Under the pieces are notes generated by a model. That model did no database searches and was not told where the DNA came from. It was given only the letters and a program-made list of their open reading frames with translations. Made by a program: the position numbers and the translations under genes. A stretch of DNA of 64,000 bases from a phage: NCBI GenBank assembly GCA_011911785.1, contig GCA_011911785.1_4084.1, one strand, 5' to 3'. How positions within the stretch are numbered: position 1 is the first letter of the stretch; the number at the start of each line of letters is the position of its first letter. Shown piece after piece: positions 15,944 to 28,890 of the stretch.

Positions 15944-16013
15944 AATTCCTCCTTTATTCATTATATTATATTTAATCCAAATAAGAAAGCCAGTATCAAG
16001 TACTGGCATTATG

Positions 16014-17123
16014 TTATTTTGGTAAATCAATTTTAGTAAAGACTGCAACATCCTCGCTTGCACCGGGAATGGCGTAATACGTTCCAGTACTATATACATC
16101 TCCATTTTTGGTTAATATTGAAGTCAAACCATCACTAAAAAGAACATCCCTAATCTCACTAACTTCAACGGGTAATTGTAAATTTGTAGCACTATATATA
16201 GCACCAGTTTGAGAATTGTTTAATCCCAAACCACGGTTCGCCCCAACACCCTTCTGATATGTACTGGTAATTACCATTTGTGTAGCAGTATTTAATGCAG
16301 GTGAATTCGTCATAAACAACGGAGAACTATTAGGAAAAGTACTTGCAGGAACTGCACGGAATGTAGTCGTGCCTGAACTAAGAAAGTTTGGAGTTTGACC
16401 ACATACGAAATATGATGTACCATTATAGTAATTAAATGCATTACCACCAATGGCTGCATCGATTACACCAGAACTACGTAATCCCCAAGTGTTAATTTGT
16501 GTTTGGTCCCCTGTACCATGCTGCCCACTGCTATTCCATCCAGAACTATATAGCTTATTATCTAATGTAATATACATACTATCATTTGCATTAGTCATTA
16601 CTTTACGCACGTTAGTAGCACATTGAGTTAATGTGTAAATCGATGATGAGCCAATACCTAAAGAACCACGATATCCATTATCTCCTGCACCATAGAGTAC
16701 TGAACTAGTGCTAAGTACAAATATTAAACCATTTGTACATACAATATTAGCAATTTCACTCACTGGTATAGCATTGGTAAACCAATTAGTCCTTTCAACT
16801 AATATAGTACTGTAAGAAGTAGTTGTAGAAGATGAGAACCAGTACGTTTCACCCGATGTCCATATCGTATTATCATTTTTAATAATAACAAGTGTACGAC
16901 CACCCACGAAAAAATTAGAAACATCTGAACTTACTAATATCCATGAAGATACCGTGTTGTTATTACCATTTCCAGATTCACCACCTTGATTTCTACCTAT
17001 GTAATATAAATCATGTGAATCAGTCAATAAGAATTGACCTTGTGTAGAAGCACCAACTTTAATTATATTTTTAGGACCAGGTACAATATTCCCATACTCT
17101 AACATTCTAACAAAAGGTAACAT
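16014..17123 (-). CDS. RCC1-like repeat protein, MLPFVRMLEYGN paralog (369 aa)
   Basis: SGQHGTGD motif; conserved leader. Confidence 0.65.
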   Translation of the reverse strand: MLPFVRMLEYGNIVPGPKNIIKVGASTQGQFLLTDSHDLYYIGRNQGGESGNGNNNTVSSWILVSSDVSNFFVGGRTLVIIKNDNTIWTSGETYWFSSSTTTSYSTILVERTNWFTNAIPVSEIANIVCTNGLIFVLSTSSVLYGAGDNGYRGSLGIGSSSIYTLTQCATNVRKVMTNANDSMYITLDNKLYSSGWNSSGQHGTGDQTQINTWGLRSSGVIDAAIGGNAFNYYNGTSYFVCGQTPNFLSSGTTTFRAVPASTFPNSSPLFMTNSPALNTATQMVITSTYQKGVGANRGLGLNNSQTGAIYSATNLQLPVEVSEIRDVLFSDGLTSILTKNGDVYSTGTYYAIPGASEDVAVFTKIDLPK

Positions 17124-17195
17124 AATTCCTCCTTTATTCATTATACTATATTTAATACAAATAAGAAAAGCCAGTACAGAGTACTGGCTATTATA

Positions 17196-18338
17196 TTATT
17201 TCCACGGTAGAAGTGAATCAGGAACTCTGGTTGGTACTCTAACGGCTGGAACATTTCCAAGTTCAGGTAAACCACTCATATACAAATTGTTATTTTCATC
17301 AATTATCATTGAATAGAAATTATCAATTACGAAGCCTGAAATTCGTCTTCCTTCTAATGCATCAAGAACCATTTCGGTGAAAGTTAGTATATTTTCGGAT
17401 GTTTGATTAACACCACATGCACCATAGGTATTTCGACCACAAGTATATAACTTATTATTATTTTTAACAACACATCCATTCCCTTCGTTGTTGGATAAAC
17501 CACCCACCAACTCTATTTCACCTTGGAATGATAAATTGGGAATTAATGTACTCATTGGTACTGCTGATACTCTACCTACACCAGCTTGACCATATGCATT
17601 TGGTGAAGCAACCTTCACTGAACCATCATTAAGAAATATATATGAAGTACGGTATGTATTTACAGCTTGTATAGCATTGGTGATCGTATTGTCTTTTGTA
17701 AAACTTAATATATTTGATGTTGTTGTACTACCAGGAGCAACAGTATTTCCTGCATACCAATAGGAGCCATCATCAAGTACTAACCCAGTACTGAGCAAAG
17801 AACAGCCATAACTTTTAACATTTTCTATAGTGCTGTATCTGAACGATGTGACATTAGCTGTTGACGCGTTACCAAATACACCACCTTCGCCAGCACCACA
17901 GTAGAACCATTTTCCATTTTTTAAAAATACACGCAAATTCTGCCCAACAGCAATACCATCAATATCATCAGCACTGACACCAAAATCAGTGAAGTACTGG
18001 GTTACATCAATCCAAACCCCATTTGTATTTGTTCCGATTTGTGGCATTACTATACTAGCACCTGTGAACCAAATAGTTCCATCATTCTTAATGGCAATGG
18101 AACCAAGAACACCACCCCAGTAACGTTCAATATTATTATTCACACGGGTCCATACGGTGGATGATTGTAATGAACCATTACCACCTTGTCCAAATGAAGA
18201 TGAACCATACCAGTACAAGTCACCATTAACATGCAAATAAAAACGAGTATTATAATTTGCTTGTAATCTATTTTTAAATAGAGGTTTTGGTTCTGGTGCT
18301 TCATTTCCATACTCTAACATTCTAGCAAAAGGTAACAT
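17196..18338 (-). CDS. RCC1-like repeat protein, MLPFARMLEYGN paralog (380 aa)
   Basis: YGQAGVGR motif; close paralog of 18412-19554. Confidence 0.65.
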   Translation of the reverse strand: MLPFARMLEYGNEAPEPKPLFKNRLQANYNTRFYLHVNGDLYWYGSSSFGQGGNGSLQSSTVWTRVNNNIERYWGGVLGSIAIKNDGTIWFTGASIVMPQIGTNTNGVWIDVTQYFTDFGVSADDIDGIAVGQNLRVFLKNGKWFYCGAGEGGVFGNASTANVTSFRYSTIENVKSYGCSLLSTGLVLDDGSYWYAGNTVAPGSTTTSNILSFTKDNTITNAIQAVNTYRTSYIFLNDGSVKVASPNAYGQAGVGRVSAVPMSTLIPNLSFQGEIELVGGLSNNEGNGCVVKNNNKLYTCGRNTYGACGVNQTSENILTFTEMVLDALEGRRISGFVIDNFYSMIIDENNNLYMSGLPELGNVPAVRVPTRVPDSLLPWK

Positions 18339-18411
18339 AATTTCCTCCTTTATTCATTATACTATATTTAATACAAATAAGAAAAGCCAGTACAGAGTAC
18401 TGGCTATTATA

Positions 18412-19554
18412 TTATTTCCACGGTAGAAGTGAATCAGGAACCCTTGTCGGTACATTTGTAGTAGACACCCCATCAAGATTTGGTACACCGCATGTATATA
18501 AATTATCAGCATCGTCAACTAACATCGTATAGTTATATCCCCTACAAAAACTACTAACATTACGACCTTCTAATGCAGTAAGAATCATTTCAGTGAATGT
18601 TGTTATATTTGTCGAGGTTGAACCAACACCACATTGTCCATTTGAATTAAGACCACATAAAAATAACTTATTATCATTTTTAATTATACAGGATGGTCCA
18701 GTAAGGTTTGTACCAAGCTCACCCACTAACTCTATTTCACCTTGGAATGCTAAATTTGGAATTAATGTACTCATAGGGGCTGGTGTTGTATTCCCAGTAC
18801 CTGCTTGACCACGTTCGTTGGAAGATGCAACTTTAACTGTTCCATCACTAAGAAATATATAGGAAGTTTCAATTGTATTGACTGCTTTAATTGCAGTGCT
18901 GATAGAAGTTTCTTGTGTAAATCTTAGCACGTTTTGTGCTGACGTTCCCGATATAAACGTATTACCTGCATACCAATATGTACCATCATTGAGTACTAAT
19001 GCAGTACTTCGAATTGCACAACCAGCACTTCGAACATTTTCTATAGTACTGTACGTGAATTGTGAAACGCTTGCCGATGAACCATTTCCGAATACACCAC
19101 CACTCCCAGCACCACAGAAGAACCACTTTCCATTTTTCAAAAATACACGCATACACGCAGATATAACAATACTATCAATATCATCAGCACTGACACCGAA
19201 ATCAGCAAAGTGCGATGTCACATCAACCCAAACACCGTTAGTGTTTGATGCAATTACTGGAATAACAGAACTTGTACCAGTGTACCAAATAGTACCATCT
19301 TTCTTTATCGCTATTGTTCCTTGAACACCACCCCAATATCGTACAACATTTGTATTGACGAGAGTCCATGCGGTTGAAGAGTTCAATGAACCATTACCAC
19401 CTTGACCATATGATGAAGAACCAAACCAATATAGATTACCATTGGTGTGTAAATAAAATTTGGCATCTGCCGAGCATTGTAACCTATTTTTTAATCGTGG
19501 TGCGGGTTCCGGTGCAATATTCCCGTACTCTAACATTCTTGCAAAAGGTAACAT
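18412..19554 (-). CDS. RCC1-like repeat protein, MLPFARMLEYGN paralog (380 aa)
   Basis: RGQAGTGN motif; RBS directly follows upstream stop, no terminator. Confidence 0.65.
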   Translation of the reverse strand: MLPFARMLEYGNIAPEPAPRLKNRLQCSADAKFYLHTNGNLYWFGSSSYGQGGNGSLNSSTAWTLVNTNVVRYWGGVQGTIAIKKDGTIWYTGTSSVIPVIASNTNGVWVDVTSHFADFGVSADDIDSIVISACMRVFLKNGKWFFCGAGSGGVFGNGSSASVSQFTYSTIENVRSAGCAIRSTALVLNDGTYWYAGNTFISGTSAQNVLRFTQETSISTAIKAVNTIETSYIFLSDGTVKVASSNERGQAGTGNTTPAPMSTLIPNLAFQGEIELVGELGTNLTGPSCIIKNDNKLFLCGLNSNGQCGVGSTSTNITTFTEMILTALEGRNVSSFCRGYNYTMLVDDADNLYTCGVPNLDGVSTTNVPTRVPDSLLPWK

Positions 19555-19566
19555 AATTCCTCCATA

Positions 19567-20463
19567 TTATTTAAAAACATACTGCGTATTAACACGAGTG
19601 CCATTGTCAAAACCAAGTACATAAAATATCTCAGCACTATTCTTAGAACCAAATAACGCACCAGTACTACTACTCAAAGTAGTATTAACCGCTAAGGGAA
19701 TCCATATGTCTTCTTCTGCATCGTATCTCAATAAATTTAATGCACCATACGACACTGCATATATATTTTTATCATATGTACTGTAACATATTTTACTAGG
19801 GTTATTACCACCAACTGGTGCTATGTTAGACCACACCGCACTTTGTATATGATATTTTTGTGCAGTACTAGTACCTTGACCAGTAATATATATGTAAGTA
19901 CCATCCGTACACATATCACCACCTCCATTGTTATTTGTTCCATCACTTGTACCTAATGATGACCATGTATTAGTACTTGGAGTATAACTGTATAACGAAT
20001 TATTAGTAGGCGAACCCCACAAATATATCTTATCCCCAGCAGTAATCATCTTACTATACGCCAGTTGACTAGGCTTCCCAATACTGTTAGTGTTCAGAAT
20101 CCATGTATTTGTACTTATATTATATACATAAAAATTATTACTACTATTACCTGAACCACCAAACAAATATATTTTTCCCTGATAAGCACATAACGCACTA
20201 CCAAATGTAGATACAGGTGCATTGGCTAATTGTGACCACGTTCTTGTAGTTAAATTAAAACTCCATAACTGATTATCCGTCTGCACCGCATTCTGTATAC
20301 CACCAAATATATAAGCAATATTACTTTCCGCATCATACGTATAACCAAAGTTATTTCGTGCTGAAGGTACTGGTGTTGTAGTAAATTGTGTTCGTACTCC
20401 ACCATTTGGGCCAGGTAATGGACCTACATTCCCGAACTCAAACATTCTAACAAAAGGTAACAT
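19567..20463 (-). CDS. Kelch/beta-propeller-like repeat protein with N-terminus MLPFVRMFEFGN (298 aa); first gene of the array
   Basis: Repeated YIFGG / IYLFGG / IYLWG motifs; conserved leader. Confidence 0.6.
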   Translation of the reverse strand: MLPFVRMFEFGNVGPLPGPNGGVRTQFTTTPVPSARNNFGYTYDAESNIAYIFGGIQNAVQTDNQLWSFNLTTRTWSQLANAPVSTFGSALCAYQGKIYLFGGSGNSSNNFYVYNISTNTWILNTNSIGKPSQLAYSKMITAGDKIYLWGSPTNNSLYSYTPSTNTWSSLGTSDGTNNNGGGDMCTDGTYIYITGQGTSTAQKYHIQSAVWSNIAPVGGNNPSKICYSTYDKNIYAVSYGALNLLRYDAEEDIWIPLAVNTTLSSSTGALFGSKNSAEIFYVLGFDNGTRVNTQYVFK

Positions 20464-20511
20464 AATTCCTCCTTTATTCATTATACTATATTTAATCAAA
20501 AAAGAAAACCC

Positions 20512-20540
20512 TTGACACCCTTTCAGTACTGATGTACTAT
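20512..20540 (+). promoter_or_regulatory. Sigma70-type promoter TTGACA-17-TACTAT for the F3 array, in a divergent region
   Basis: Read directly; RBS TAAGGAG follows. Confidence 0.55.
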
Positions 20541-20565
20541 ATGAGAAATCTAAGGAGAATCGTAC

Positions 20566-20793
20566 ATGCCATATGCTCTAAAGTACTACATCAATGAACT
20601 AAATGAACTAGAGTACGCAAAGGTTCTCTCTGACCAATCGTGGCTAATTGAACTAAAAAATCATAAGAGCACAGGGTGTAACCTTATGCTTGGTAGTGCA
20701 CTGAATACCCTTACTGTGAGCATTGTACACAATACACTATTAGGGGATACCCGTAAACAATTTTTAAACATCTTAGTACTAGTGGCTATATGA
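20566..20793 (+). CDS. F3 family small protein (75 aa)
   Basis: First gene after promoter. Confidence 0.5.
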   Translation: MPYALKYYINELNELEYAKVLSDQSWLIELKNHKSTGCNLMLGSALNTLTVSIVHNTLLGDTRKQFLNILVLVAI

Positions 20794-20990
20794 ACATTAA
20801 CCCGTACTACATCAATGCATTGCACCCTGGGCTACAAGATGCAATGAAGAACCAAAAAACAGTACTGAAAAATGCTAAACGCATACCAGGACTCCTGAAC
20901 TCAAACAGGAATAACCTCATATGGAATGCAATAGAAGGTAACGAAAGTATGCAGTACTATTTCATCTTAACACTACTATTGGAGTACTAA
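20790..20990 (+). CDS. F3 family small protein (66 aa)
   Basis: N-term PYYINAL, C-term YYFILTLLLEY; start/stop overlap. Confidence 0.5.
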   Translation: MNINPYYINALHPGLQDAMKNQKTVLKNAKRIPGLLNSNRNNLIWNAIEGNESMQYYFILTLLLEY

Positions 20991-20991
20991 T

Positions 20992-21201
20992 ATGAATACT
21001 GAACATAAAGAATTCTACACCAAATACCTCAGCAACGAAGAACAAATGTTTCTAAGGAGTGTACCACCTGTAAGTATAGACACACCCAACACAAGGAATT
21101 GCTTTAATAATTGTATACGTAGTACTCTAGAAGCTATTGAATGCAATAACAAAAATATGCAGTACTCAAGTTTAATCGGACTAATATACTTCTATGAATA
21201 A
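20992..21201 (+). CDS. F3 family small protein (69 aa)
   Basis: N-term HKEFYTKYL, C-term LIYFYE. Confidence 0.5.
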   Translation: MNTEHKEFYTKYLSNEEQMFLRSVPPVSIDTPNTRNCFNNCIRSTLEAIECNNKNMQYSSLIGLIYFYE

Positions 21202-21385
21202 TCATAAAGATTTCTACTGTAGTAAACTACACGAACAATACAGGGACTCATTCCCTCAAGAACCTATGAGAAAGAATAGTCCCTTTTATAATTACGATTT
21301 CAGGTTGGAGACACGTTATGCAATAGAACAACCATTTACTTCAACTAAGTACCGCTCTATCCTGAACCTCATCTTTAAGTTCTAA
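21194..21385 (+). CDS. F3 family small protein (63 aa)
   Basis: N-term HKDFY, C-term LNLIFKF. Confidence 0.5.
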   Translation: MNNHKDFYCSKLHEQYRDSFPQEPMRKNSPFYNYDFRLETRYAIEQPFTSTKYRSILNLIFKF

Positions 21386-21396
21386 AAAGGTACTAT

Positions 21397-21609
21397 ATGA
21401 AAACTACAAACATTCATCAGTACTACATAGATATTCTCCCTAAAGATATACAGTTCATACTTAAACAAGAATTCAGTACTTTTTAAAAACTTAAAAGAAC
21501 CGCACCGAATGTACTCATCCAGCACCAAAAAAATGTCGTGCGTAATATTCTACAAGGTGCAACAGGGACCGAGTACTTTAATATAGTAAGGCTAATTACA
21601 TTACAATGA
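21397..21609 (+). pseudogene. F3 family member interrupted by in-frame TAA at 21484-21486
   Basis: Reading frame continues in the same frame after the stop and ends ..EYFNIVRLITLQ with family-like C-terminus. Confidence 0.45.
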
Positions 21610-21791
21610 ATCATATAAGCTACTATTACCAAAAACTATCCGACAGAGACAAGTACAGCCACAACTCCCATGTGTGGTACTACAAACGCGGCAGTATAAG
21701 AGACAAACAACATTACTTCTGTACTGCTATAAAAGAAACACTAACAACTAAGTACACGTACAGAGCAGTACTTAAACTTATTGAAATGTAG
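21606..21791 (+). CDS. F3 family small protein (61 aa)
   Basis: ATGA overlap; C-term LKLIEM. Confidence 0.5.
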   Translation: MNHISYYYQKLSDRDKYSHNSHVWYYKRGSIRDKQHYFCTAIKETLTTKYTYRAVLKLIEM

Positions 21792-21799
21792 AGAATACA

Positions 21800-21979
21800 A
21801 TGCTAGAATACTACCTAAGCGTAATTTACCCAGAAGATAGATACGGCTTCAATTACTTCTCAATGAGCTATCATTGTAGTTCGCAAAGAAAACAAAGAAA
21901 ATTACTCCTGAATTGTACTAAATTGGCACAGGACGAAATGTTCACATATAATGAAGTACTGAAACTAATCTCTATATAA
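21800..21979 (+). CDS. F3 family small protein (59 aa), not in ORF track
   Basis: Hand-translated MLEYYLSVIY..LKLISI. Confidence 0.4.
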   Translation: MLEYYLSVIYPEDRYGFNYFSMSYHCSSQRKQRKLLLNCTKLAQDEMFTYNEVLKLISI

Positions 21980-21989
21980 GGAATAAACT

Positions 21990-22169
21990 ATGCTAGAGTA
22001 CTACACCGATAATCTCAGTACTAAGGATCGTTTCATGTACGACACCTTCGTGAAGTACTACAACATAGGAACAAAAAGTACTAAAACTATTAATCTCAAT
22101 AGCTGCATTCATCACGTCCTGACAAAAAATAACCCATACAGAGAAATAATCTCGCTTGTAACAGTATAA
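21990..22169 (+). CDS. F3 family small protein (59 aa), not in ORF track
   Basis: Hand-translated MLEYYTDNL..ISLVTV. Confidence 0.4.
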   Translation: MLEYYTDNLSTKDRFMYDTFVKYYNIGTKSTKTINLNSCIHHVLTKNNPYREIISLVTV

Positions 22170-22197
22170 GCAGTATAAGCAATTTAAGGAGACTAAA

Positions 22198-22869
22198 ATG
22201 AAACTCAATCCACAAAGCAAACGATACCTACAGCACTTTAAGTACCTACAATCAATCCAGGCTGAATCTACCACTAATGCATATACTTATCATCCTAATG
22301 TACTAAAGAACCTAAAGAAAAGTAAAAAAACCAGTACAAATGGAGTTAACGTATCAAAGAACCTTGAATTGTACATGAAGAAAAATAATATAGCTGTTCA
22401 TTATATGAATATCTATAATACTGATTTAAAAGTATTGAGTACTAATACGAGCATGAAGGTACTAAAGAACGCATCCTTCATCATCCATATGCAGTTGGAT
22501 AATACCCCGTGCACTTTAATGCTATACTTCGGGAATACATACTTCTTCGGGAATTGTAACACCTCCCACGATGTCAATACAGCACAATTCCAAATGGGTG
22601 GCATATACAGTATGGGTTCAGAAGAAATACACGATAACATGCATTTCTTCCAACAGCAACGTACAGAAGAAACTAAATCAATTGTAGAATTCCTCAAAGA
22701 ACTACAAGGCAAAGAATTATCAGAAGAAGAACTATTCATGTACAGTACTGTAATCGATAATCCTGTACTGTACAAAAACGCGTACAATCTTACAAAACAT
22801 GTACAGGAACTTATCAGTACTAATAAGAAAATTCATCACCTCATTACATATATTACAAACTATGCATAA
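22198..22869 (+). CDS. F2-like protein (223 aa) sitting inside the F3 array
   Basis: Motif SEEELFMYSTVID matches F2 signature; RBS AAGGAG. Confidence 0.5.
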   Translation: MKLNPQSKRYLQHFKYLQSIQAESTTNAYTYHPNVLKNLKKSKKTSTNGVNVSKNLELYMKKNNIAVHYMNIYNTDLKVLSTNTSMKVLKNASFIIHMQLDNTPCTLMLYFGNTYFFGNCNTSHDVNTAQFQMGGIYSMGSEEIHDNMHFFQQQRTEETKSIVEFLKELQGKELSEEELFMYSTVIDNPVLYKNAYNLTKHVQELISTNKKIHHLITYITNYA

Positions 22870-23044
22870 AGAATACTACGTAAGTAAACTTACAATAGAT
22901 CTCCAAAAACTTATTCCCCAAAAACCTGTAGATTTCAAAGATAAAAGCCAAACTATATTCTACCGATATCAAACAGAATCTGCAATAAATGAAGATGATA
23001 TCTATAACCTGTACAATGTACTAACACTTATATACAGGTACTAA
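22862..23044 (+). CDS. F3 family small protein (60 aa)
   Basis: MHKEYYVSKL; track start 22799 rejected. Confidence 0.5.
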   Translation: MHKEYYVSKLTIDLQKLIPQKPVDFKDKSQTIFYRYQTESAINEDDIYNLYNVLTLIYRY

Positions 23045-23045
23045 T

Positions 23046-23234
23046 ATGCACAAAGAATACTACACAAAATATTTCCCAATGTACCTCAGAACTAATCTAT
23101 TAGATAAACCTCGCGGTATCAATGCACAAAACGATAAAAAGTACTTTACTATGTGCACTAAAGCATGTATACAAGATTATGATAGCTATCATCGAGTACT
23201 GTACCACACCCTGTACCTCGCATTCGTGTACTAA
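23046..23234 (+). CDS. F3 family small protein (62 aa)
   Basis: MHKEYYTKYF..LYLAFVY. Confidence 0.5.
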   Translation: MHKEYYTKYFPMYLRTNLLDKPRGINAQNDKKYFTMCTKACIQDYDSYHRVLYHTLYLAFVY

Positions 23235-23243
23235 GGAAATCAT

Positions 23244-23444
23244 ATGCATAAAGAACACTACATAAAAGAACTACCAAAGTTTCTACAAGGCAATCTATTA
23301 GATGATGAACCTCGCGACATTAACTGTATATACGAAGCTGATTACTTCCGTACATGTACTGAACAAGTACTTAATGAAGAAGTTAATGAAAACAATTCTC
23401 AAGTGCAACTGTACCACACTCTGTATCTCGCGTTCCAGTACTAA
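23244..23444 (+). CDS. F3 family small protein (66 aa)
   Basis: MHKEHYIKEL..LYLAFQY. Confidence 0.5.
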   Translation: MHKEHYIKELPKFLQGNLLDDEPRDINCIYEADYFRTCTEQVLNEEVNENNSQVQLYHTLYLAFQY

Positions 23445-23452
23445 GGACTAAT

Positions 23453-23635
23453 ATGTATAAAGAATTTTATAAAGATCATCTCCCAATGCATCTCCAACAC
23501 CATGTGCCAACAAAACCATTGGGCATAAAAGATCATGCAAAAATAATGTTCCAACAATGTACTAAGTACACCCTAATATACGATGACAATCCATATATGC
23601 TGTACTACATAACAATGCTAATATTCAGGTACTAA
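23453..23635 (+). CDS. F3 family small protein (60 aa)
   Basis: MYKEFYKDHL..MLIFRY. Confidence 0.5.
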   Translation: MYKEFYKDHLPMHLQHHVPTKPLGIKDHAKIMFQQCTKYTLIYDDNPYMLYYITMLIFRY

Positions 23636-23637
23636 TC

Positions 23638-23838
23638 ATGTATAAAGAATACTATATGAGTAAACTATCAAGCACCGAAAGAATCTGGTGCGGAGCCGCC
23701 GCCCCCGTTAATCCAAAAAGTGCATACGCAAAAATGTGCTTTAGGAAAGCTACAACGAACTCAATTGAAGCTCTAGAACAAGATGACACTAAAGCACTAT
23801 ACTCTAACCTAATGTTGCTAGTATATATCTATGGATAA
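23638..23838 (+). CDS. F3 family small protein (66 aa)
   Basis: MYKEYYMSKL..LLVYIYG. Confidence 0.5.
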   Translation: MYKEYYMSKLSSTERIWCGAAAPVNPKSAYAKMCFRKATTNSIEALEQDDTKALYSNLMLLVYIYG

Positions 23839-24022
23839 TTATAAAGAATACTATAAACAATTTGTTAAAGAGAACTACAAAGATGCCGTCCCCGTAATCC
23901 CTTTAAATTCCCATGACCCAAGTTCTATATTCTTGTTTAAGGACGCAATACGTACAGTACTCAATACTAAAGATGAACAGGTGCAGTACGTATTCTTACT
24001 ATTACTTATATACAGACACTAA
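23831..24022 (+). CDS. F3 family small protein (63 aa)
   Basis: MDNYKEYYKQF..LLLIYRH. Confidence 0.5.
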   Translation: MDNYKEYYKQFVKENYKDAVPVIPLNSHDPSSIFLFKDAIRTVLNTKDEQVQYVFLLLLIYRH

Positions 24023-24023
24023 T

Positions 24024-24221
24024 ATGAATGACCATAAAGAATTCTATATAAGTAAACTCAAAGAGAATGAACAAGTATGGATTAACGCTCTAATCCCTCT
24101 ACCAATGACTCGATATGAATTTAATAAATGTACTAATATAGCAATAGACCCTTCTCCTGTTCTAGAGAATGTACAGTACAATCAGTACTACTATATCTTA
24201 ATGCTTATATATAGGAAGTAA
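24024..24221 (+). CDS. F3 family small protein (65 aa)
   Basis: MNDHKEFYISKL..MLIYRK; track start 23913 rejected. Confidence 0.5.
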   Translation: MNDHKEFYISKLKENEQVWINALIPLPMTRYEFNKCTNIAIDPSPVLENVQYNQYYYILMLIYRK

Positions 24222-24339
24222 TTAAACACATATAGCTAGGGGAAGCTCCGTAGTGCAAGCATTATACAGGCTTTAACATATGTTGCATATGTTAAAATTC
24301 AGCCTGGACAAATGCGATCACTAGGATTCTCCCCAGGCT

Positions 24340-24400
24340 AAACCCCGTAATCATAGGTAGTCATAAGTAATCATATATAAACATTTAAGTAATCATTTAT
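24340..24400. repeat. Cluster of direct 8-mer repeats GTAATCAT (4-5 copies)
   Basis: Read directly in non-coding region. Confidence 0.6.
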
Positions 24401-24613
24401 AATCATTGCAGTGAAGAGTATTGAGTACTGTTTCCCCTATATGATTCAGTACTGATATCCCACTAAGTAGGCAAATGAAGTCGCCCAAAATTTACATAAT
24501 TTTACAGTACTGAACAATTGCAAAACAAATCATTTCCAATCAAAAGTAATCACGGAATGACCAGTACTGAAAACTCCCAATCACCTATTCAAAAAAGTTC
24601 AATTTACCCTTTG

Positions 24614-24656
24614 TCAAAAATCCCGAATACCCATTGGGGAAAATTCCGAATACCCC
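24614..24656. repeat. Direct repeat AAAAT(C/T)CCGAATACCC, 2 copies
   Basis: Read directly. Confidence 0.6.
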
Positions 24657-24851
24657 TTGAGGCTCCAGCAAAAAGTTGGTTAGTACTCCATTGTAAATCT
24701 GGATCGTAAAAATTTTGGAGTACCTATGAAATAAAAGTTGGATCTTCGAAAGTTGAAATTTACATTGGGACATATAGGATTAGTGGGATATAATGAGTTT
24801 TGAAGAGATACAGAAGATATGTTTTCAGTACTGAATAATGAAAGAAATCTA

Positions 24852-24879
24852 TTGACATTATGATTCAGTACTGTATAAT
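24852..24879 (+). promoter_or_regulatory. Orphan sigma70 promoter TTGACA-16-TGTATAAT (extended -10)
   Basis: No CDS within 1.2 kb downstream. Confidence 0.5.
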
Positions 24880-25280
24880 GTTCTACATAGAGTGATGGAT
24901 TGCCGCAAACAATTCAGAGCCTTAACCCTCCTGTCGTGAGACAGTACAGAAGAGATTGAATCCTCCTATGCAGTGGTTCATCTTTGACAACCTCTTTTTT
25001 CGTAATATAAACAGTACTGTTATTAACAGAATGGTAGCAGTACTGATATTAATCTAATATAATGTTACCATGCAATGTGGTGAATTTCCCTTAACAGTAT
25101 TCAGTACTACATGATAGTCTTCATCCTCCTAGGGTAACATAGTGAGGGCTATTGTGGCAGTACTGAATACTCCTTTCACAAGATAGATCTATGGTATAGT
25201 ACTGACGGATTTTGGGCGTAGTAACCCTGGGTGGATTTTGGACGTAGAGATGCCTAGCCCTCCAGAAGTCTGGAAGTAAA

Positions 25281-25409
25281 GATGGCTATCCCTCTAGACG
25301 GCTGGATGGCTAGATTTCTAGATGGCTGTACTGCTAGACGTTTGGACGGCTAAACGGCTAAACGGCTAAACGGCTAGATGGTTAAACGTCTGGATGTATA
25401 GACGGCTAA
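25281..25409. repeat. Iteron-like array of 8-bp direct repeats (AAACGGCT x3 tandem plus about 8 degenerate copies), followed by an AT-rich tract
   Basis: GGCTAAACGGCTAAACGGCTAAACGGCTAGATGG and flanking variants read directly. Confidence 0.7.
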
Positions 25410-25566
25410 ATCAAAATTTTTATTTTGTTTTTTCCAATAGTTCCCCTACCGCGTGGGGATGGTTTCCCCGCAGTATCTGGAGTTAGATTTTTCTGAATCT
25501 GGAATCATTATCTAATAAACTGGGGGCAATGTCAACCGCCTGGATGAATATTTTTAAAAATAATCT

Positions 25567-25646
25567 AGTACTGAATTTTGGGCGTAACTATGCACCCGGT
25601 GGGCTAGAGTCTTTCTCGACTTGATGAAATAATTATAGCAGTACTG
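25567..25646. repeat. ~80-bp repeat element (copy 1) containing GCACCCGGTGGGC and TAATTATA, flanked by AGTACTG
   Basis: Related copies at 25786-25868 and 29147-29230. Confidence 0.55.
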
Positions 25647-25785
25647 AATGATAAAAGCAATAGCCTAAGTGTAAAAAGTTTTAATTAATTTGCTTGCCAT
25701 CCTGGGGCGTACTATGGTACTATGATTCAGTACTGAGAAAGTGCTTTTACCTGCTAGGGTGCGGGAGTGTATCCTTTTTAAATTT

Positions 25786-25868
25786 ACTGAATTTTGGGCG
25801 TAGTTCCGCACCCCCTGGGGTATCCGCTTTCTCGCGTCTATGTAGTAATTATACGCTTTTTTAGTACT
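25786..25868. repeat. ~80-bp repeat element (copy 2)
   Basis: Aligns with 25567-25646. Confidence 0.5.
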
Positions 25869-26077
25869 GAGTCAATAGCTAAAAACAAAATAATTGAAAA
25901 TAATTTAACGCGTTTAAATGGCCCGTAAAGCCCTGGATTGTTGGGAGTGGTGCAAATGTATAGCTTAGGTGTATTAATGCGTTAGAATGCGTATGAGGCC
26001 GTTTTAAGGGTATAGTACTGAATAATAGTACTCCTATATAGAAAGAAAACTATTTTAAAAAGTATTTGTAGAAAGTA

Positions 26078-26106
26078 CTTGCAAAGTATTGGGAAAGGTG
26101 TAGAAT
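26078..26106 (+). promoter_or_regulatory. Type-B early promoter CTTGCA-17-TAGAAT; 5' stem-loop at 26120-26138
   Basis: A-rich upstream tract; hairpin AGCGGGAA-cac-TTCCCGCT in the leader. Confidence 0.55.
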
Positions 26107-26161
26107 GTTTTACATCGAGAGCGGGAACACTTCCCGCTACACTTTAAGAGAGATTAAAACG

Positions 26162-26524
26162 ATGGCTACTCAAATCAATAAAATTATTGCTAACCTGGTT
26201 AACTTCCGCGAAGAGATGAAAGGTCTTCCGGCTGAAACTGTAAAGATTCACATTTCAGCTTATCGGGAATTGATTGCGATGTTACCGCTTAAGCGTGAAC
26301 AATACGCCGCTACCGTGATGCTTGATGCGATGATCCACAAGATGATTGCCAGTGATTTAACGATGGCTTATCAGTACATGGGCGAAATGTTTGCGGTGTA
26401 TAGTAAACCAGTACCAGGGATGGAAAGTACCGAAGTATTGCACGGTTTAAACTTAAAACAAGATGCATGGGATAATATGCCTCGTTTCCTGGTATGGGCT
26501 GACAGTGGCAAGATTTACGAATAA
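26162..26524 (+). CDS. Hypothetical small early protein (120 aa)
   Basis: Start moved downstream of leader hairpin; RBS AAGAGAG. Confidence 0.5.
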   Translation: MATQINKIIANLVNFREEMKGLPAETVKIHISAYRELIAMLPLKREQYAATVMLDAMIHKMIASDLTMAYQYMGEMFAVYSKPVPGMESTEVLHGLNLKQDAWDNMPRFLVWADSGKIYE

Positions 26525-26537
26525 GTTTTAAAAAGTA

Positions 26538-26566
26538 CTTGCAAACTAAGTTTAAAAGCGTATAAT
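26538..26566 (+). promoter_or_regulatory. Type-B early promoter AAAAAGTACTTGCA-17-TATAAT; 5' stem-loop at 26579-26597
   Basis: Read directly; hairpin GTGGGGA-atagt-TCCCCAC. Confidence 0.6.
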
Positions 26567-26618
26567 ACTTTCTATCAGGTGGGGAATAGTTCCCCACTAC
26601 AAATAAGAGAATTTAAAA

Positions 26619-26858
26619 ATGGCTACTACTAAAACTTTCAACGGTCACAAAAACAAAACTCAATGGAATGTAAGCCTTTGGATTAATAACGATGAGTCAT
26701 TGTATCGTCTGGCGAAAGAATTTATCGACGCTAATACTAATCGTAATGATGCGGCCCGTCATATGATGCTATTTTTAGAACAAATTGGACAAGATAAAAC
26801 ACCGGACGGATTCAAGTATAGCACTACTGCGATCCGTGCTGCAATGGTTGGCATGTAA
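26619..26858 (+). CDS. Hypothetical small early protein (79 aa)
   Basis: Own promoter cassette; start ATGGCT. Confidence 0.55.
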   Translation: MATTKTFNGHKNKTQWNVSLWINNDESLYRLAKEFIDANTNRNDAARHMMLFLEQIGQDKTPDGFKYSTTAIRAAMVGM

Positions 26859-26939
26859 GAGAATAGATTAAAAGTACTATTGCACGGTGATAGTACTTTA
26901 TAATAGATTTCTTTTATACATCAACGATGGGGTAACAGC

Positions 26940-27206
26940 ATGAATATTATATACTTTGCAACGCGTGAACTAGCTCGGATTGCAGCACGCCAGGACGGGG
27001 CGACGTTTAAAGATATGGGTGTACAATCGGAACGTGGTAAACGTTGGGCCGTAGTAAAGCAAAGTACAGCCCGATCAATTCAGTACTGGTTAGCGGCGTT
27101 AAAAAGTCCTGATAGTGTATCGCGTCGAGTAGTAGAAATAAAGCACGACCGCAAGGGCAACCGTGTTACTGTGTACAGTACTAAAAAGATTGCAGTACTT
27201 GAATAA
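26940..27206 (+). CDS. Hypothetical small early protein (88 aa); paralog of 38093-38488
   Basis: Shared FYATRE..FKDMG..HDRKGNRVTVYS. Confidence 0.55.
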   Translation: MNIIYFATRELARIAARQDGATFKDMGVQSERGKRWAVVKQSTARSIQYWLAALKSPDSVSRRVVEIKHDRKGNRVTVYSTKKIAVLE

Positions 27207-27211
27207 AAGTA

Positions 27212-27240
27212 CTTGCATACTAAGTTTAAAAGCGTATAAT
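27212..27240 (+). promoter_or_regulatory. Type-B early promoter CTTGCA-17-TATAAT; 5' stem-loop at 27253-27271
   Basis: Read directly. Confidence 0.6.
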
Positions 27241-27292
27241 ACTTTATATCAGGTGGGGAATACTTCCCCACTACAATGAAGAGGATTTTAAA

Positions 27293-27523
27293 ATGGCTAT
27301 CATGTATATGACCGAAGTTAAAACCGTAAAAGATACTACCACTAATAAAACTACTTACTTACAGCGGGTATGCGGTGTATGGCAACGTATTAGTAAAGCA
27401 AAGTACTTTAAATTAACATCATATGCTAATCGTTCGGATTCATTCAGTACTGAAATAAAAGGTAATAAATTACACCAATACGGCACTTATTATTATTATA
27501 GCCTGGACGCGATTGCAGTCTAA
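27293..27523 (+). CDS. Hypothetical small early protein (76 aa)
   Basis: RBS GAGGA; promoter cassette. Confidence 0.55.
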   Translation: MAIMYMTEVKTVKDTTTNKTTYLQRVCGVWQRISKAKYFKLTSYANRSDSFSTEIKGNKLHQYGTYYYYSLDAIAV

Positions 27524-27807
27524 GCAGTTTACAAATCTTTACAATTGCCGGTATTGACTTATTTTGTCAGTACTGGCATAATGTATCTATTGAAACGAAC
27601 AATTTGGCCCACGGGGTGCGGGAGTGTATCTATAGAAAAAGTAGTTTAGTACAGTTACAATTGTGCACCCGGTGGGTTAGCTGTTGTCATGGGGTATATT
27701 ATACCAGTACTTGATAATGCTGTCAATACTTTTTTTTACTATTCAGTACTGAAAACTATTTTTAAAAAGTACTTGCAAACTATGTTTAAAGGCGTATAAT
27801 GTTTTAC

Positions 27808-27883
27808 ATCAGGACGGGGAACGAAATAAGTAACTCCCCGTTAAGTAGCCCAGGAGTAAGGCATACGAAAAACTCCCCTGATA
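27808..27883 (+). other. Conserved ~76-nt structured leader element between tandem promoters (candidate small RNA or 5' leader)
   Basis: Second copy at 36895-36970; internal hairpin ACGGGGA..TCCCCGT; outer ATCAGG/CCTGAT; no start codon inside. Confidence 0.35.
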
Positions 27884-27889
27884 AAATAG

Positions 27890-27917
27890 TTTGACAATTG
27901 TTTTTAAAAGCGTATAA
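27890..27917 (+). promoter_or_regulatory. Early promoter TTGACA-16-TATAAT; 5' stem-loop at 27930-27953
   Basis: Read directly. Confidence 0.6.
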
Positions 27918-27973
27918 TACTTTACATCGAGGCGGGGGAATGATTCTCCCGCCTATAACCAGGAGTAAGCATC

Positions 27974-28207
27974 ATGATCGAACAAATCAAAACTACTACA
28001 AGCCGGACTGGAACGAAAGTACATTGCATCGCTGATAACGAAAAAGGCGTACCCTATTGTGCTGTACACGTAAACACAGATGGCGACTATTGGTTAACTG
28101 TATATGGGAGTTATTCGTTTGCTCGACCTGCTCATAGTAAGATCCTGGACGTAGTGAAGCCTACCGGAAAGGATATCACGGTAGAAAAATATTTTACTAA
28201 GCACTAA
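27974..28207 (+). CDS. Hypothetical small early protein (77 aa)
   Basis: RBS AGGAG. Confidence 0.55.
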   Translation: MIEQIKTTTSRTGTKVHCIADNEKGVPYCAVHVNTDGDYWLTVYGSYSFARPAHSKILDVVKPTGKDITVEKYFTKH

Positions 28208-28295
28208 AAAGTACTTGCATACTAAGTTTAAACGAGTATAATACTTTATATCGAGGCGGGGGAATGGTTCCCCTGCATTTACAGAGGATTATCTA

Positions 28296-28583: not shown

Positions 28584-28600
28584 GTACTGAGGATTATCTA

Positions 28601-28804: not shown

Positions 28805-28811
28805 AAAAGTA

Positions 28812-28840: not shown

Positions 28841-28890
28841 AGTTTACATCAAGGGGAGAAATGGTTCTCCCTGGTAATGAGGAAAATAAA

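What the first reader, a model, noticed from the sequence alone, without database searches (positions are those of the whole stretch)
20566..24221. Third tandem family (F3): about 15 genes of 59-75 aa with M-(H/Y)-K-E-(Y/F)-Y N-termini and hydrophobic aromatic C-termini
Consecutive plus-strand genes share N-terminal HKEYY/HKEFY and C-terminal L-Y-x-x-L-(Y/M)-L-(A/I)-(F/Y)-(Q/R)-(Y/H), mostly with overlapping or abutting start/stop codons. They are transcribed divergently from the propeller array off a promoter at 20512. Two members (21800, 21990) fall below the ORF-track size cutoff.
Basis: seen in the sequence. Interest (0 to 1): 0.6.

Follow-up and report, generated by a model that had tools for sequence, protein, structure and literature searches.

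The report
Tandem small-protein family in jumbo phage
A jumbo E. coli phage carries one operon of about fifteen related genes for tiny helical proteins of unknown function, and this operon gains and loses whole genes between close relatives; the family is real but found only in this phage genus, and it probably acts on the host early in infection.

Summary
Window 20566-24221 (+) is one 16-cistron operon of an Asteriusvirus (121Q/PBECO4-like) jumbo coliphage, 96% identical to phage A4. It holds 14 intact ORFs of 59-75 aa, one pseudogene (21397-21609) and one unrelated 223-aa gene (22198-22869).

Thirteen intact ORFs and the pseudogene form one family with three subfamilies. Nine core members carry the HKE(Y/F)Y motif and match phrog_11711 (unknown function). 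The first gene (20566) is not demonstrably a member.

The family occurs only in Asteriusvirus-like genomes: 28 representatives among 1.84 billion proteins. It has no Pfam, PDB or fold match. AlphaFold gives a confident soluble four-helix model (pLDDT 88) with no transmembrane segment, so membrane association is not supported. Ortholog dN/dS is about 0.3, so the proteins are under purifying selection.

The promoter is invariant in nine genomes and resembles about 20 promoters in the adjacent terminal repeat. The operon ends 245 bp before the inferred repeat boundary.

Compared with phage A4, the window lacks two whole genes. The breakpoints lie inside the conserved motif-coding DNA, which shows in-register unequal crossing-over.

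Function is unknown. My best guess is a variable set of early cytoplasmic host-binding proteins. This is a new member of a known kind, of moderate interest.

The parts
20512..20540 (+). Sigma-70-type promoter of the operon. The -35 TTGACA is at 20512-17. The 17-nt spacer contains the palindrome CAGTACTG (20524-31). The -10 TACTAT is at 20535-40. An A-rich tract lies upstream, and the SD TAAGGAG is at 20551-57.
   Evidence: Consensus scan scores 10/12. The block AAAACCCTTGACAnCCTTTCAGTACTGnTGTACTATA is invariant in 9 Asteriusvirus-like genomes. About 20 promoters in the terminal repeat have the same TTGACA...AGTACTG...-10 layout.
20566..20793 (+). g01, 75 aa. First cistron, single copy in all 34 related phage records. 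Family membership is not demonstrated.
   Evidence: Leave-one-out score 8.7 bits, rank 4. hhalign P is 0.075 to core and 0.0015 to subfamily C. tblastn finds it only in Asteriusvirus-like records.
20790..20990 (+). g02, 66 aa, subfamily C.
   Evidence: A core HMM built without it scores E 1.2e-4. Leave-one-out gives 19-22 bits. hhalign of C against core gives 95%, P 2e-8.
20992..21201 (+). g03, 69 aa, core subfamily.
   Evidence: phrog_11711 E 1.2e-13. Leave-one-out 52.9 bits.
21194..21385 (+). g04, 63 aa, core subfamily.
   Evidence: phrog_11711 E 6.3e-17. Leave-one-out 38.1 bits.
21397..21609 (+). g05, subfamily C pseudogene with an in-frame TAA at 21484-86. It is an intact 69-aa gene in A4, slurp01, BF17, phAPEC6 and fEgEco12.
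   Evidence: Translation. Intact orthologs.
21606..21791 (+). g06, 61 aa, subfamily B. It is the best conserved member, 87-97% identical in all 34 records.
   Evidence: Leave-one-out 20.8 bits. hhalign of B against core gives 80.6%, P 1.3e-5. tblastn.
21800..21979 (+). g07, 59 aa, subfamily B. Its 3' end holds the breakpoint of a 188-nt unit-length deletion relative to A4.
   Evidence: Leave-one-out 11.2 bits, rank 1. B alignment. Indel at window 21953.
21990..22169 (+). g08, 59 aa, subfamily B.
   Evidence: Leave-one-out 19.7 bits. B alignment.
22198..22869 (+). g09, 223 aa. An unrelated gene embedded in the operon, with its own SD. Its stop overlaps the start of g10 by 8 nt. Function unknown.
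   Evidence: phrog_29152 E 2.8e-136. hhalign to every F3 subfamily gives P >= 0.002 over short stretches. Only Asteriusvirus-like homologs. AlphaFold model unusable, pLDDT 41.
22862..23044 (+). g10, 60 aa, core subfamily.
   Evidence: phrog_11711 E 9e-13. Leave-one-out 50.0 bits.
23046..23234 (+). g11, 62 aa, core subfamily.
   Evidence: Leave-one-out 35.3 bits.
23244..23444 (+). g12, 66 aa, core subfamily. This is the member used for structure prediction.
   Evidence: phrog_11711 E 4.3e-25. AlphaFold pLDDT 87.7, pTM 0.73, four helices.
23453..23635 (+). g13, 60 aa, core subfamily.
   Evidence: Leave-one-out 42.9 bits.
23638..23838 (+). g14, 66 aa, core subfamily.
   Evidence: Leave-one-out 47.3 bits.
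23831..24022 (+). g15, 63 aa, core subfamily. It is a chimera: the first six codons (MDNYKE) come from a gene that A4 still has, and the rest comes from the next gene.
   Evidence: 184-nt unit-length indel at window 23840, with breakpoints in the repeated TATAAAGAAT (Y-K-E codons). Leave-one-out 40.9 bits.
24024..24221 (+). g16, 65 aa, core subfamily and last cistron. It is a divergent allele relative to A4.
   Evidence: phrog_11711 E 2.4e-20. dS to A4 is 0.14, against 0-0.19 (pooled 0.058) for the other members.
24233..24340 (+). Conserved long imperfect hairpin directly after the last stop codon. It may be a 3' end or stabiliser of the operon transcript, or a DNA element near the genome end.
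   Evidence: RNA fold -47.3 kcal/mol, z -6.6. The sequence is conserved in 9 genomes but shows almost no covariation.
24466..24480 (.). Inferred left boundary of the direct terminal repeat, that is, the physical genome end. It lies 245 bp after the operon.
   Evidence: Base 1 of the fEgEco12 record (AGTAGGCA...) aligns here, and its right repeat starts 302 bp after its own array. The fEgEco12 termini were determined by PhageTerm and restriction digests (PMC13070987).

Best explanation
What it is (high confidence). The interval is one 3.66-kb, 16-cistron operon of an Asteriusvirus jumbo coliphage. It is the last transcription unit of the unique genome region and ends 245 bp before the roughly 20-kb direct terminal repeat. 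Thirteen intact cistrons and one pseudogene belong to a genus-restricted family of about 60-aa proteins. The family has three subfamilies.

Predicted protein. The fold is a small soluble bundle of four helices. The buried i, i+3/4 positions of helices 3 and 4 are conserved. So are an invariant Tyr and the neighbouring K-E-(Y/F) at the N-terminus. The loops and exposed faces, and the net charge (pI 4.6-9.6), vary freely.

How it is expressed (inferred from sequence). Host sigma-70 RNA polymerase starts at the invariant promoter at 20512. That promoter has the same TTGACA...AGTACTG...-10 layout as the promoters of the small genes in the terminal repeat, so the operon probably belongs to the early class. 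Cistrons are translationally coupled. Stops and starts overlap or lie within 28 nt, and Shine-Dalgarno-like purines sit in the last codons of the preceding gene.

How it evolves (shown). The motif-coding DNA at gene starts (TATAAAGAAT = Y-K-E) and at gene ends acts as in-register homology for unequal crossing-over. This adds or removes exactly one gene and creates chimeras. Repertoires therefore differ even between genomes about 96-98% identical.

What the proteins do (inferred, least certain). They are cytoplasmic binding proteins built on one scaffold. Together they form a variable set of early host-directed modulators (host takeover or counter-defence). Each paralog recognises a different or variant partner through its variable surface.
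For: Family reality:
- Leave-one-out HMMs recover the members.
- phrog_11711 matches them independently.
- Profile-profile links join the subfamilies, with reversed-sequence controls.

Protein-level selection:
- Pooled ortholog dN/dS is 0.30-0.39 against six genomes.

Fold and solubility:
- AlphaFold gives pLDDT 87.7 and pTM 0.73, with helices at 3-7, 12-18, 29-43 and 49-65.
- The best 19-residue hydropathy window is 1.2 or less, and pI ranges 4.6-9.6.
- In 145 core sequences, Y6 is 100% conserved, L62 94%, K3 84%, L10 81%, E4 77%, P23 73% and F35 73%. The loops are high-entropy.
- The K-E-Y-Y motif keeps its place in the protein when the start codon is 2-4 codons further upstream (g03, g04, g15, g16). 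So it is not just a translation-initiation signal.

Operon and promoter:
- Junction distances come from the coordinates.
- No + strand terminator-like site lies inside the array.
- The promoter block is invariant in 9 genomes.
- About 20 promoters in the repeat read TTGACA-N9-AGTACTG-TATAAT.
- In the related phage CBB, sigma-70-like promoters with UP elements cluster before short hypothetical genes and in the terminal repeat. Those genes were interpreted as early (PMC5259590).

Not in the virion:
- The phAPEC6 virion mass-spectrometry list includes the neighbouring RCC1-like gp549 and gp551. It includes none of gp540c-548c.

Position in the genome:
-.

Turnover:
- Nine genomes carry 14-22 intact members each, falling into about 38 orthogroups at 65% identity or more. 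Only about 8 orthogroups are universal.
- Two unit-length indels (188 and 184 nt) separate the window from A4. Their breakpoints lie in repeated motif DNA, and g15 is a chimera.

Restriction to the genus:
- 52 clusters among 5.8 billion proteins.
- 28 representatives among 1.84 billion.
- 34 phage records, all Asteriusvirus-like.
Against: - There is no direct evidence of expression time. No Asteriusvirus transcriptome was found.
- No partner or phenotype is known for any member.
- dN/dS of about 0.3 shows constraint, not an arms race. Only a few short genes approach 1.
- The array is not more variable than its neighbourhood. Window 52.6-60 kb is covered only 28-43% by most relatives, against 62-84% for the array.
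- Small proteins are easily missed by virion mass spectrometry.
- Part of the terminal conservation could reflect DNA-level constraints. Candidates are the Shine-Dalgarno sequences of the next cistron and the genome-wide selected AGTACT motif.
Confidence: 0.5

Rival explanations
1. The proteins act on the phage's own processes, not on host targets. Examples would be subunits of a hetero-oligomeric assembly, or small regulators or adaptors for phage replication, transcription or packaging. In this reading the paralogs are subfunctionalised components.
For: Several members are strongly conserved across all 34 genomes. g06 is 87-97% identical, and g03 and g11 are also well kept. dN/dS is about 0.3. 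The N-terminal K-E-Y-Y and the invariant Tyr suggest one shared interaction. The operon lies beside the genome end.
Against: More than half of the orthogroups are dispensable and differ between close relatives. That is unusual for parts of an essential machine. Charge and surfaces vary widely. No homologs occur in the related Rak2-like genera, which share the core machinery.
Confidence: 0.15
2. They are chaperones or assembly partners for the neighbouring array of RCC1/Kelch-like beta-propeller virion proteins, which is transcribed divergently.
For: The two arrays are adjacent, and that adjacency is conserved in every genome examined, including a metagenomic relative. Both are multi-copy. The RCC1-like proteins are in the virion.
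Against: The two arrays use different promoter types. F3 has TTGACA-17-TACTAT. The propeller genes are each preceded by a hairpin and by TAAATATAGTATAAT without a -35. The strands are opposite. Copy numbers do not correspond. Fibre chaperones are usually encoded just downstream of their client on the same strand (my own knowledge).
Confidence: 0.1
3. The family is a largely neutral or selfish by-product of recombination-prone repeats. The genes persist and turn over with little functional consequence.
For: The window's copy has lost two genes by unequal crossing-over and one by a stop codon, relative to A4. Array size ranges from 14 to 22. A few genes have dN/dS near 1.
Against: Pooled dN/dS is 0.30-0.39. 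The promoter is invariant. ORFs stay intact with coupled junctions in nine genomes. About 8 orthogroups are universal.
Confidence: 0.1
4. They are small membrane-associated proteins, for example for superinfection exclusion or lysis timing, anchored by the hydrophobic C-terminus.
For: The C-terminal 11-residue window reaches a hydropathy of 1.2-2.4 in several members, and the stretch is rich in aromatic residues.
Against: No 19-residue window exceeds 1.2. For the 13 confirmed members the maximum is 0.78. There is no signal peptide or lipobox. AlphaFold packs the C-terminal helix against helix 3 with pLDDT above 90.
Confidence: 0.07
5. The DNA itself is the functional unit, for example as a dense carrier of the AGTACT motif next to the genome end, and the ORFs are incidental.
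For: The 3.66-kb operon holds 25 AGTACT sites. Across the window there are 267 against 21.7 expected. The motif falls equally in all three frames. It is conserved 76-89% between genomes, against 40-61% for other hexamers.
Against: The motif is enriched over most of the 64-kb window and is not specific to the array. dN/dS is about 0.3. Reading frames are preserved, junctions are coupled, and a foldable conserved protein profile exists. All of this shows selection on the proteins.
Confidence: 0.03

Closest known systems
PHROG phrog_11711 (unknown function) and the 'hypothetical protein' annotations in 121Q (gp250-265), A4, PBECO4, phAPEC6 and others
   Same: These are the same proteins. All five core members submitted match the 62-position profile end to end (E 1e-13 to 4e-25). 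Orthologs are annotated in at least 34 GenBank records.
   Different: The PHROG covers only the core subfamily. g01, g02, g06 and g07 do not match it. Nothing about function, fold, operon structure, subfamilies, position beside the terminal repeat or turnover mechanism is recorded there. The papers I could search do not cover these points either.
The other tandem array of the same phage group: the 'LGTNYQ' family at window 45178-51738. [quoted passage not shown] 2017 (PMC5646251)
   Same: It is also a head-to-tail array of 65-87-aa genes with overlapping stops and starts on the same strand. It directly flanks the terminal repeat on the other side. Hua et al. interpreted it as tandem duplication that expands jumbo genomes.
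   Different: The two families show no detectable sequence relationship (hhalign P >= 0.019). Their conserved motifs differ.
Host-takeover modules of small early genes in or next to long terminal repeats. Examples are SPO1 gp37-60, the Tre genes of Twort-like staphylococcal phages and the T5 pre-early genes (my own knowledge), and the early region proposed for phage CBB (PMC5259590)
   Same: These are many very small genes of unknown function, at a genome end and linked to a direct terminal repeat, driven by host-type promoters.
   Different: Those modules are mostly unrelated genes, each with its own promoter. F3 is a single operon of paralogs. Early timing is shown for those phages and only inferred here.
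Gene 'accordions' and terminal multigene families of large eukaryotic DNA viruses, such as poxvirus K3L amplification and the ASFV MGF families (my own knowledge)
   Same: These are also tandem paralogs near genome termini. Copy number changes by unequal recombination between close isolates, and repertoires are variable.
   Different: For those families, roles in host range and immune evasion are demonstrated. Here only the recombination mechanism and the repertoire variation are shown. An adaptive benefit is untested, and dN/dS gives no sign of positive selection.
Single-copy small phage inhibitors of host proteins, such as T7 Gp2, T7 Gp0.4, T4 AsiA and lambda Kil (my own knowledge)
   Same: They share the size class (about 50-90 aa), a cytoplasmic location, a compact fold and presumed early expression.
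   Different: No sequence or fold similarity was found. Those inhibitors are single genes aimed at one conserved target, not a family of 14-22 paralogs.

Membership tests
phrog_11711 (phage protein family, unknown function) | Significant full-length match to the family profile | tested here: met
   g03, g04, g10, g12 and g16 match at E 1e-13 to 4e-25 over profile positions 1-62. g11 and g13-15 were not submitted, but they score 35-47 bits against leave-one-out HMMs of the same subfamily. g01, g02, g06 and g07 do not match.
One F3 superfamily uniting the core, B and C subfamilies | Profile-profile similarity over the full length, above reversed-sequence controls | tested here: met
   Core against C gives 95%, P 2e-8 over 63 columns. 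Core against B gives 80.6%, P 1.3e-5 over 53 columns. Controls give P >= 0.013.
One F3 superfamily: inclusion of g01 (20566) | Significant similarity to any subfamily profile | tested here: inconclusive
   Leave-one-out score 8.7 bits, rank 4. hhalign P is 0.075 to core and 0.0015 to C.
One F3 superfamily: inclusion of g09 (22198, 223 aa) | A domain matching the family profile | tested here: not met
   hhalign probability is 13% or less and covers only 11-28 columns.
Integral membrane or holin-like small proteins | At least one hydrophobic segment long enough to span a membrane (about 18-20 residues) | tested here: not met
   The maximum 19-residue Kyte-Doolittle mean is 1.2 or less for all members, and 0.78 or less for the 13 confirmed members. 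The model is a soluble helical bundle.
Helix-turn-helix DNA-binding proteins (Cro/Xre-like) | A recognisable HTH domain by profile or by fold | tested here: not met
Four-helix colicin-immunity-type inhibitors (Im7/Im9-like) | Structural similarity to the solved immunity proteins | tested here: not met
Known defence-system components (PADLOC) | Match to a PADLOC model | tested here: not met
   No hits at E <= 0.1 for ten array proteins. No library of anti-defence proteins was available.
Tandem multigene family evolving by unequal crossing-over ('accordion') | Head-to-tail paralogs with copy-number differences between close relatives | tested here: met
   14-22 intact members in nine genomes. 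The window and A4 (about 96-98% identical) differ by two whole genes.
Tandem multigene family evolving by unequal crossing-over ('accordion') | Indels of exactly one repeat unit, with breakpoints in homologous sequence of neighbouring units | tested here: met
   The indels are 188 nt and 184 nt. They are bounded by the repeated GAAGTACTGAAACTAATCTCTAT and TATAAAGAAT. g15 is a chimera.
Tandem multigene family evolving by unequal crossing-over ('accordion') | Copy-number change is adaptive under host pressure | not testable with these tools
   This needs experimental evolution or host-range data.
Early (host RNA polymerase) gene class | Sigma-70-type promoter conserved upstream | tested here: met
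   TTGACA-17-TACTAT with an A-rich upstream tract, invariant in 9 genomes. The layout is shared with about 20 promoters in the terminal repeat.
Early (host RNA polymerase) gene class | Transcripts appear in the first minutes of infection | not testable with these tools
   No transcriptome of an Asteriusvirus was found.
Virion proteins | Detected in purified particles | tested here: not met
   The phAPEC6 virion mass-spectrometry table lists gp549 and gp551 but none of gp540c-548c. Caveat: 7-kDa proteins are easily missed.

The most novel reading that the evidence does not exclude
The two tandem families that flank the terminal repeat are the F3 operon on one side and the LGTNYQ array on the other. 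They could be the phage counterpart of the terminal multigene families of poxviruses and African swine fever virus. In this reading they are recombination-driven, rapidly re-assorted repertoires of small binders that set host range or neutralise strain-specific defences. For F3, a conserved K-E-Y-Y/Tyr6 docking site would be shared by all members, and a variable target-recognition surface would differ between paralogs.
Probability: 0.25. Interest if true: 0.7.

Novelty: new member of a known kind. Interest (0 to 1): 0.4.

Why it matters
Jumbo phage genomes consist mostly of small genes of unknown function, and tandem duplication has been proposed as one way they grew. This operon is a clean, tractable example. 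It combines a confidently foldable 60-aa scaffold with no known relative, a single conserved promoter and a defined place beside the genome end. It also gives direct sequence evidence for how genes are added and removed, namely unequal crossing-over within the motif-coding DNA.

If the proteins prove to be host-directed binders, the roughly 38 natural variants would be a ready-made specificity library. Array content might then help explain host-range differences among Asteriusviruses that are being considered for therapy. If they prove unimportant, the operon still documents the mechanics of genome expansion in a jumbo phage.

Tried and rejected
Function from sequence libraries:
- Pfam, NCBIfam and PADLOC gave nothing above noise.
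- The alignment profile searched against PDB sequences also gave nothing.

Function from fold:
- Foldseek against PDB gave no match with E below 2.6.
- BFVD returned only the family's own members.
- The AFDB50 library was not available.

More distant relatives:
- An exhaustive HMMER search of 1.84 billion representatives found 28 proteins, all the same family.
- tblastn of g01, g06 and g12 found only the same 34 Asteriusvirus-like records.

The embedded g09 gene as a functional clue:
- Its homologs are all Asteriusvirus-like.
- Its AlphaFold model failed, with pLDDT 41.
- The suspected F3-like C-terminal domain was not supported.
- Only a 17-residue motif is shared with three other window ORFs.

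Other checks:
- A link between F3 and the LGTNYQ array was rejected.
- An Rfam scan of 19.5-27 kb gave no credible RNA family, and no tRNAs were found.
- The hairpin after the array is conserved in sequence but shows too little covariation to call it an RNA structure.
- The idea that the array is exceptionally variable was rejected. Neighbouring early-region DNA is less well covered by relatives.
- I briefly considered the AGTACT motif as a SlmA-binding site (GTGAGTACTCAC, from memory). The flanks here are mainly CAGTACTG, and GAGTACTC is absent, so I dropped it.
- The window is not in the collection of complete E. coli genomes.

Full report
**Identity of the window**

The interval lies in a genome of the genus Asteriusvirus, the jumbo coliphages of the 121Q/PBECO4 group at about 350 kb. 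Megablast of 20400-24400 finds 36 phage records, all Escherichia or Salmonella phages of this group. The best is phage A4, at 96.1% identity over 98% of the query. Every gene under the match is annotated 'hypothetical protein'.

**Checking the observation**

The + strand from 20566 to 24221 carries 16 consecutive cistrons:
- 14 intact ORFs of 59-75 aa.
- One ORF (21397-21609) interrupted by an in-frame TAA at 21484. It is intact in A4 and four other genomes.
- One 223-aa gene (22198-22869).

All junctions are 28 nt or less. Five are 4- or 8-nt overlaps and four are 1-2-nt gaps. No + strand terminator-like site lies inside the array.

Leave-one-out HMMs recover each of the nine core members (20992, 21194, 22862, 23046, 23244, 23453, 23638, 23831, 24024) at 35-54 bits. 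No other ORF of the window, and none of 1000 shuffles, exceeds 15 bits. An HMM of the core finds no further member elsewhere in the 64 kb. The independent PHROG profile phrog_11711 (unknown function) matches all five core members submitted, end to end.

So the family is real, and its profile extends over the whole protein, not just the N-terminal tetrapeptide.

**Subfamilies**

I compared profiles built from seven genomes.
- Subfamily C (20790 and the pseudogene) links to the core at 95% probability (P 2e-8).
- Subfamily B (21606, 21800, 21990) links to the core at 80.6% (P 1.3e-5).
- Both links run over the full length. Reversed-sequence controls give P >= 0.013.
- A metagenomic relative has a first gene that combines a core-like N-terminus (HEEFY) with a B-like C-terminus. 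This fits common ancestry.

The first gene (20566) is single-copy in all 34 records but is not demonstrably a member. The 223-aa gene is unrelated (phrog_29152).

**Distribution**

The family is confined to this genus.
- 52 clusters among 5.8 billion proteins.
- 28 representatives among 1.84 billion in an exhaustive HMMER search, all 41-69 aa and visibly the same family.
- tblastn of members of all three subfamilies finds only the same 34 records.
- It is unrelated to the other tandem family of the window, the LGTNYQ motif genes at 45178-51738. [quoted passage not shown] (PMC5646251).

**The proteins**

With a 60-sequence alignment, AlphaFold2 gives a confident model of g12: pLDDT 87.7, pTM 0.73, with helices at 3-7, 12-18, 29-43 and 49-65.

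Across 145 distinct core sequences:
- Tyr6 is invariant.
- L62, K3, L10, E4, P23 and F35 are 73-94% conserved.
- The conserved positions in helices 3 and 4 recur at i, i+3/4, as expected for a buried face.
- The loops and other helix positions are highly variable.

Other properties:
- The proteins are Tyr-rich (10.5%).
- pI ranges from 4.6 to 9.6.
- They have no signal peptide.
- No 19-residue hydropathy window exceeds 1.2.

The 'hydrophobic aromatic C-terminus' is therefore the core helix of a soluble bundle, not a membrane anchor.

Pooled ortholog dN/dS against six genomes is 0.30-0.39. The ORFs are therefore maintained as proteins. There is no overall signal of positive selection.

The proteins are absent from the phAPEC6 virion proteome, which does contain the neighbouring RCC1-like proteins.

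**Expression signals**

A promoter-like site lies 25 nt upstream of the first ATG. It reads TTGACA (20512), a 17-nt spacer, TACTAT (20540), and is preceded by an A-rich tract. The block AAAACCCTTGACAnCCTTTCAGTACTGnTGTACTATA is invariant in nine genomes whose coding DNA differs by 12-20%.

Its spacer contains CAGTACTG. About 20 promoters in the adjacent terminal repeat read TTGACA-N9-AGTACTG-TATAAT. So the operon shares the architecture of what is most likely the early promoter class. In the related phage CBB, sigma-70-like promoters before short genes and in the terminal repeat were read as early (PMC5259590).

The propeller genes on the other strand carry a different upstream element: a hairpin and then TAAATATAGTATAAT, with no -35.

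Timing remains an inference. I found no Asteriusvirus transcriptome.

**Genomic position**

The termini of phage fEgEco12 were determined by PhageTerm and restriction digests, giving a 20,993-bp direct terminal repeat (PMC13070987).
- In fEgEco12, the array ends 302 bp before the right repeat.
- Base 1 of that record aligns to window 24466. The window's array therefore ends 245 bp before the inferred repeat boundary.
- The other repeat boundary maps between 44518 and 45174. The LGTNYQ array starts at 45178.

The two tandem families thus flank the terminal repeat, and the window spans a junction from the end of the unique region, through the repeat, into the start of the unique region. From 20.5 kb onward nearly all genes are on the + strand, so the F3 promoter opens this long block.

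**Turnover and its mechanism**

Nine genomes carry 14-22 intact members each. These fall into about 38 orthogroups at 65% identity or more, and only about 8 are universal. The order is not fixed. For example, a g03-like copy sits in the distal half of the array in fEgEco12 and BF17.

The window and A4 are about 96-98% identical here, yet they differ by two indels of exactly one gene unit:
- 188 nt at 21953, bounded by the repeated GAAGTACTGAAACTAATCTCTAT. This sequence encodes the 3' ends of B genes.
- 184 nt at 23840, bounded by the repeated TATAAAGAAT. These are the Y-K-E codons.

As a result, window g15 (MDNYKE|YYKQ...) is a chimera of two adjacent A4 genes. Both missing genes exist in several other genomes, so the window most likely lost them. 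Together with the stop codon in g05, this copy of the array is contracting.

Within the window, paralog DNA similarity is concentrated at the gene ends. That supplies the in-register homology for these events.

The array is nevertheless not unusually variable for this part of the genome.

**Interpretation**

Shown:
- A real, genus-restricted, protein-coding multigene family in one coupled operon.
- A confident soluble helical model without known relatives.
- A conserved host-type promoter.
- A position at the end of the unique region.
- Unit-length gain and loss by unequal crossing-over.

Inferred:
- Early expression.
- A role as variable cytoplasmic binders of host (or phage) partners, with a conserved core and N-terminal motif and variable surfaces.

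The function itself is unknown, and I rate the host-directed reading as the most likely of several. The rivals are a role in the phage's own processes, chaperones of the propeller proteins, near-neutral repeats, membrane proteins, and a purely DNA-level element. They are scored separately.

**Novelty**

The genes are already deposited as hypothetical proteins, and the core is clustered as phrog_11711. Tandem arrays in 121Q have been mentioned in passing. The family's extent, fold prediction, operon and promoter, location next to the terminal repeat and recombination mechanism do not appear in the literature I could search. It is a new member of a known kind, namely a lineage-specific tandem family of small phage genes. 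Interest is moderate.

The most surprising thing I met is not the family but the AGTACT motif, described under things noticed in passing.

Noticed in passing
whole window; positions listed for 20400-27600: The palindrome AGTACT occurs 267 times in 64 kb, against 21.7 expected from base composition. CAGTACTG occurs 62 times, against an expectation of roughly one by my own estimate. Inside the F3 genes it falls equally in all three reading frames. It is conserved 76-89% between the window and seven relatives, while other hexamers in the same alignments are conserved 40-61%. It is nearly absent from 44-48 kb and 52-56 kb. In the array, Tyr is coded by TAC 70% of the time, against 44% in other window genes. 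This looks like a DNA motif under selection, perhaps a binding or modification site. I found no mention of it in the literature.
   Followed up: partly
window 24852-43300, e.g. 24852, 27554, 30823, 34048, 36016, 37315, 40474, 40968; minus strand 29245, 27726: About 20 near-identical promoters of the form TTGACA-N9-AGTACTG-(0-1 nt)-TATAAT/CATAAT sit before the small genes of the inferred terminal repeat. The AGTACTG element directly abuts the -10 hexamer. It could be an operator or a specificity element of the early promoter class.
   Followed up: partly
window 24222-26104: This 1.9-kb stretch has no credible ORF. It is also unannotated in 121Q and A4, and it spans the inferred terminal-repeat boundary at 24466. 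It holds about 20 AGTACT sites, many followed by -10-like hexamers. It also holds three copies of AGTACTGA(N)TTTTGGGCGTA followed by GC-rich hairpins (about 25198, 25567, 25780) and a tandem array of the 8-mer (CT)AGACGG / ACGGCTAA at 25293-25408. Possible roles are small RNAs, an origin or packaging signals. No Rfam family matches.
   Followed up: partly
window 24233-24340: A long imperfect hairpin lies immediately after the last F3 stop codon (-47.3 kcal/mol, z -6.6). Its 3' half and the following bases (AATTCAGCCTGGACAAATGCGATCACTAGGATTCTCCCCAGGCTAAACCCCGTAATC) are essentially identical wherever they were sampled in nine genomes. That is better conserved than the coding DNA, but there is almost no covariation.
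   Followed up: partly
window 45178-51738: A second tandem family of at least 24 genes of 65-87 aa shares an (L/V)GTNYQ motif. It starts right after the inferred end of the terminal repeat and is unrelated to F3. It is probably the array of more than 30 genes noted for 121Q by Hua et al. 2017.
   Followed up: partly
window 22198-22869 vs 49755-50096, 50602-50958, 50968-51303: The 223-aa gene embedded in the F3 operon shares a short acidic motif, (L/I)SEEE(L/Y/E)F(M/Q)YS(T/L)(V/I), with three roughly 110-aa genes embedded in the LGTNYQ array. Pairwise BLASTP gives E 0.014-0.033, and hhalign gives P 0.0012 over 17 columns. This is suggestive only.
   Followed up: partly
window 9619-20499, minus strand: This is an array of RCC1-like and Kelch-like beta-propeller genes. 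A hairpin that itself contains AGTACT (gccagtactctgtactggc) and the block TAAATATAGTATAATGAATAAAGGAGG were seen upstream of the 18338 and 13483 genes and, partly, others. A roughly 80-95-nt block is repeated before most of the genes. In phAPEC6, two orthologs are virion proteins.
   Followed up: no
window 22198-22869: The g09 protein is 100% identical to a protein recorded as 'hypothetical protein FOI42_RS02945 [Escherichia coli]' on a 358,987-bp contig. So a genome of this phage seems to be deposited as part of an E. coli assembly. The window is not in the collection of complete E. coli genomes.
   Followed up: no
window 24024-24221 vs A4 3939-4139: The last F3 gene differs from its A4 counterpart far more than most of its neighbours (73% aa identity, dS 0.14, dN/dS about 1, against pooled dS 0.058). 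A 19-nt indel lies at its start. This suggests an allele swapped in by recombination.
   Followed up: no
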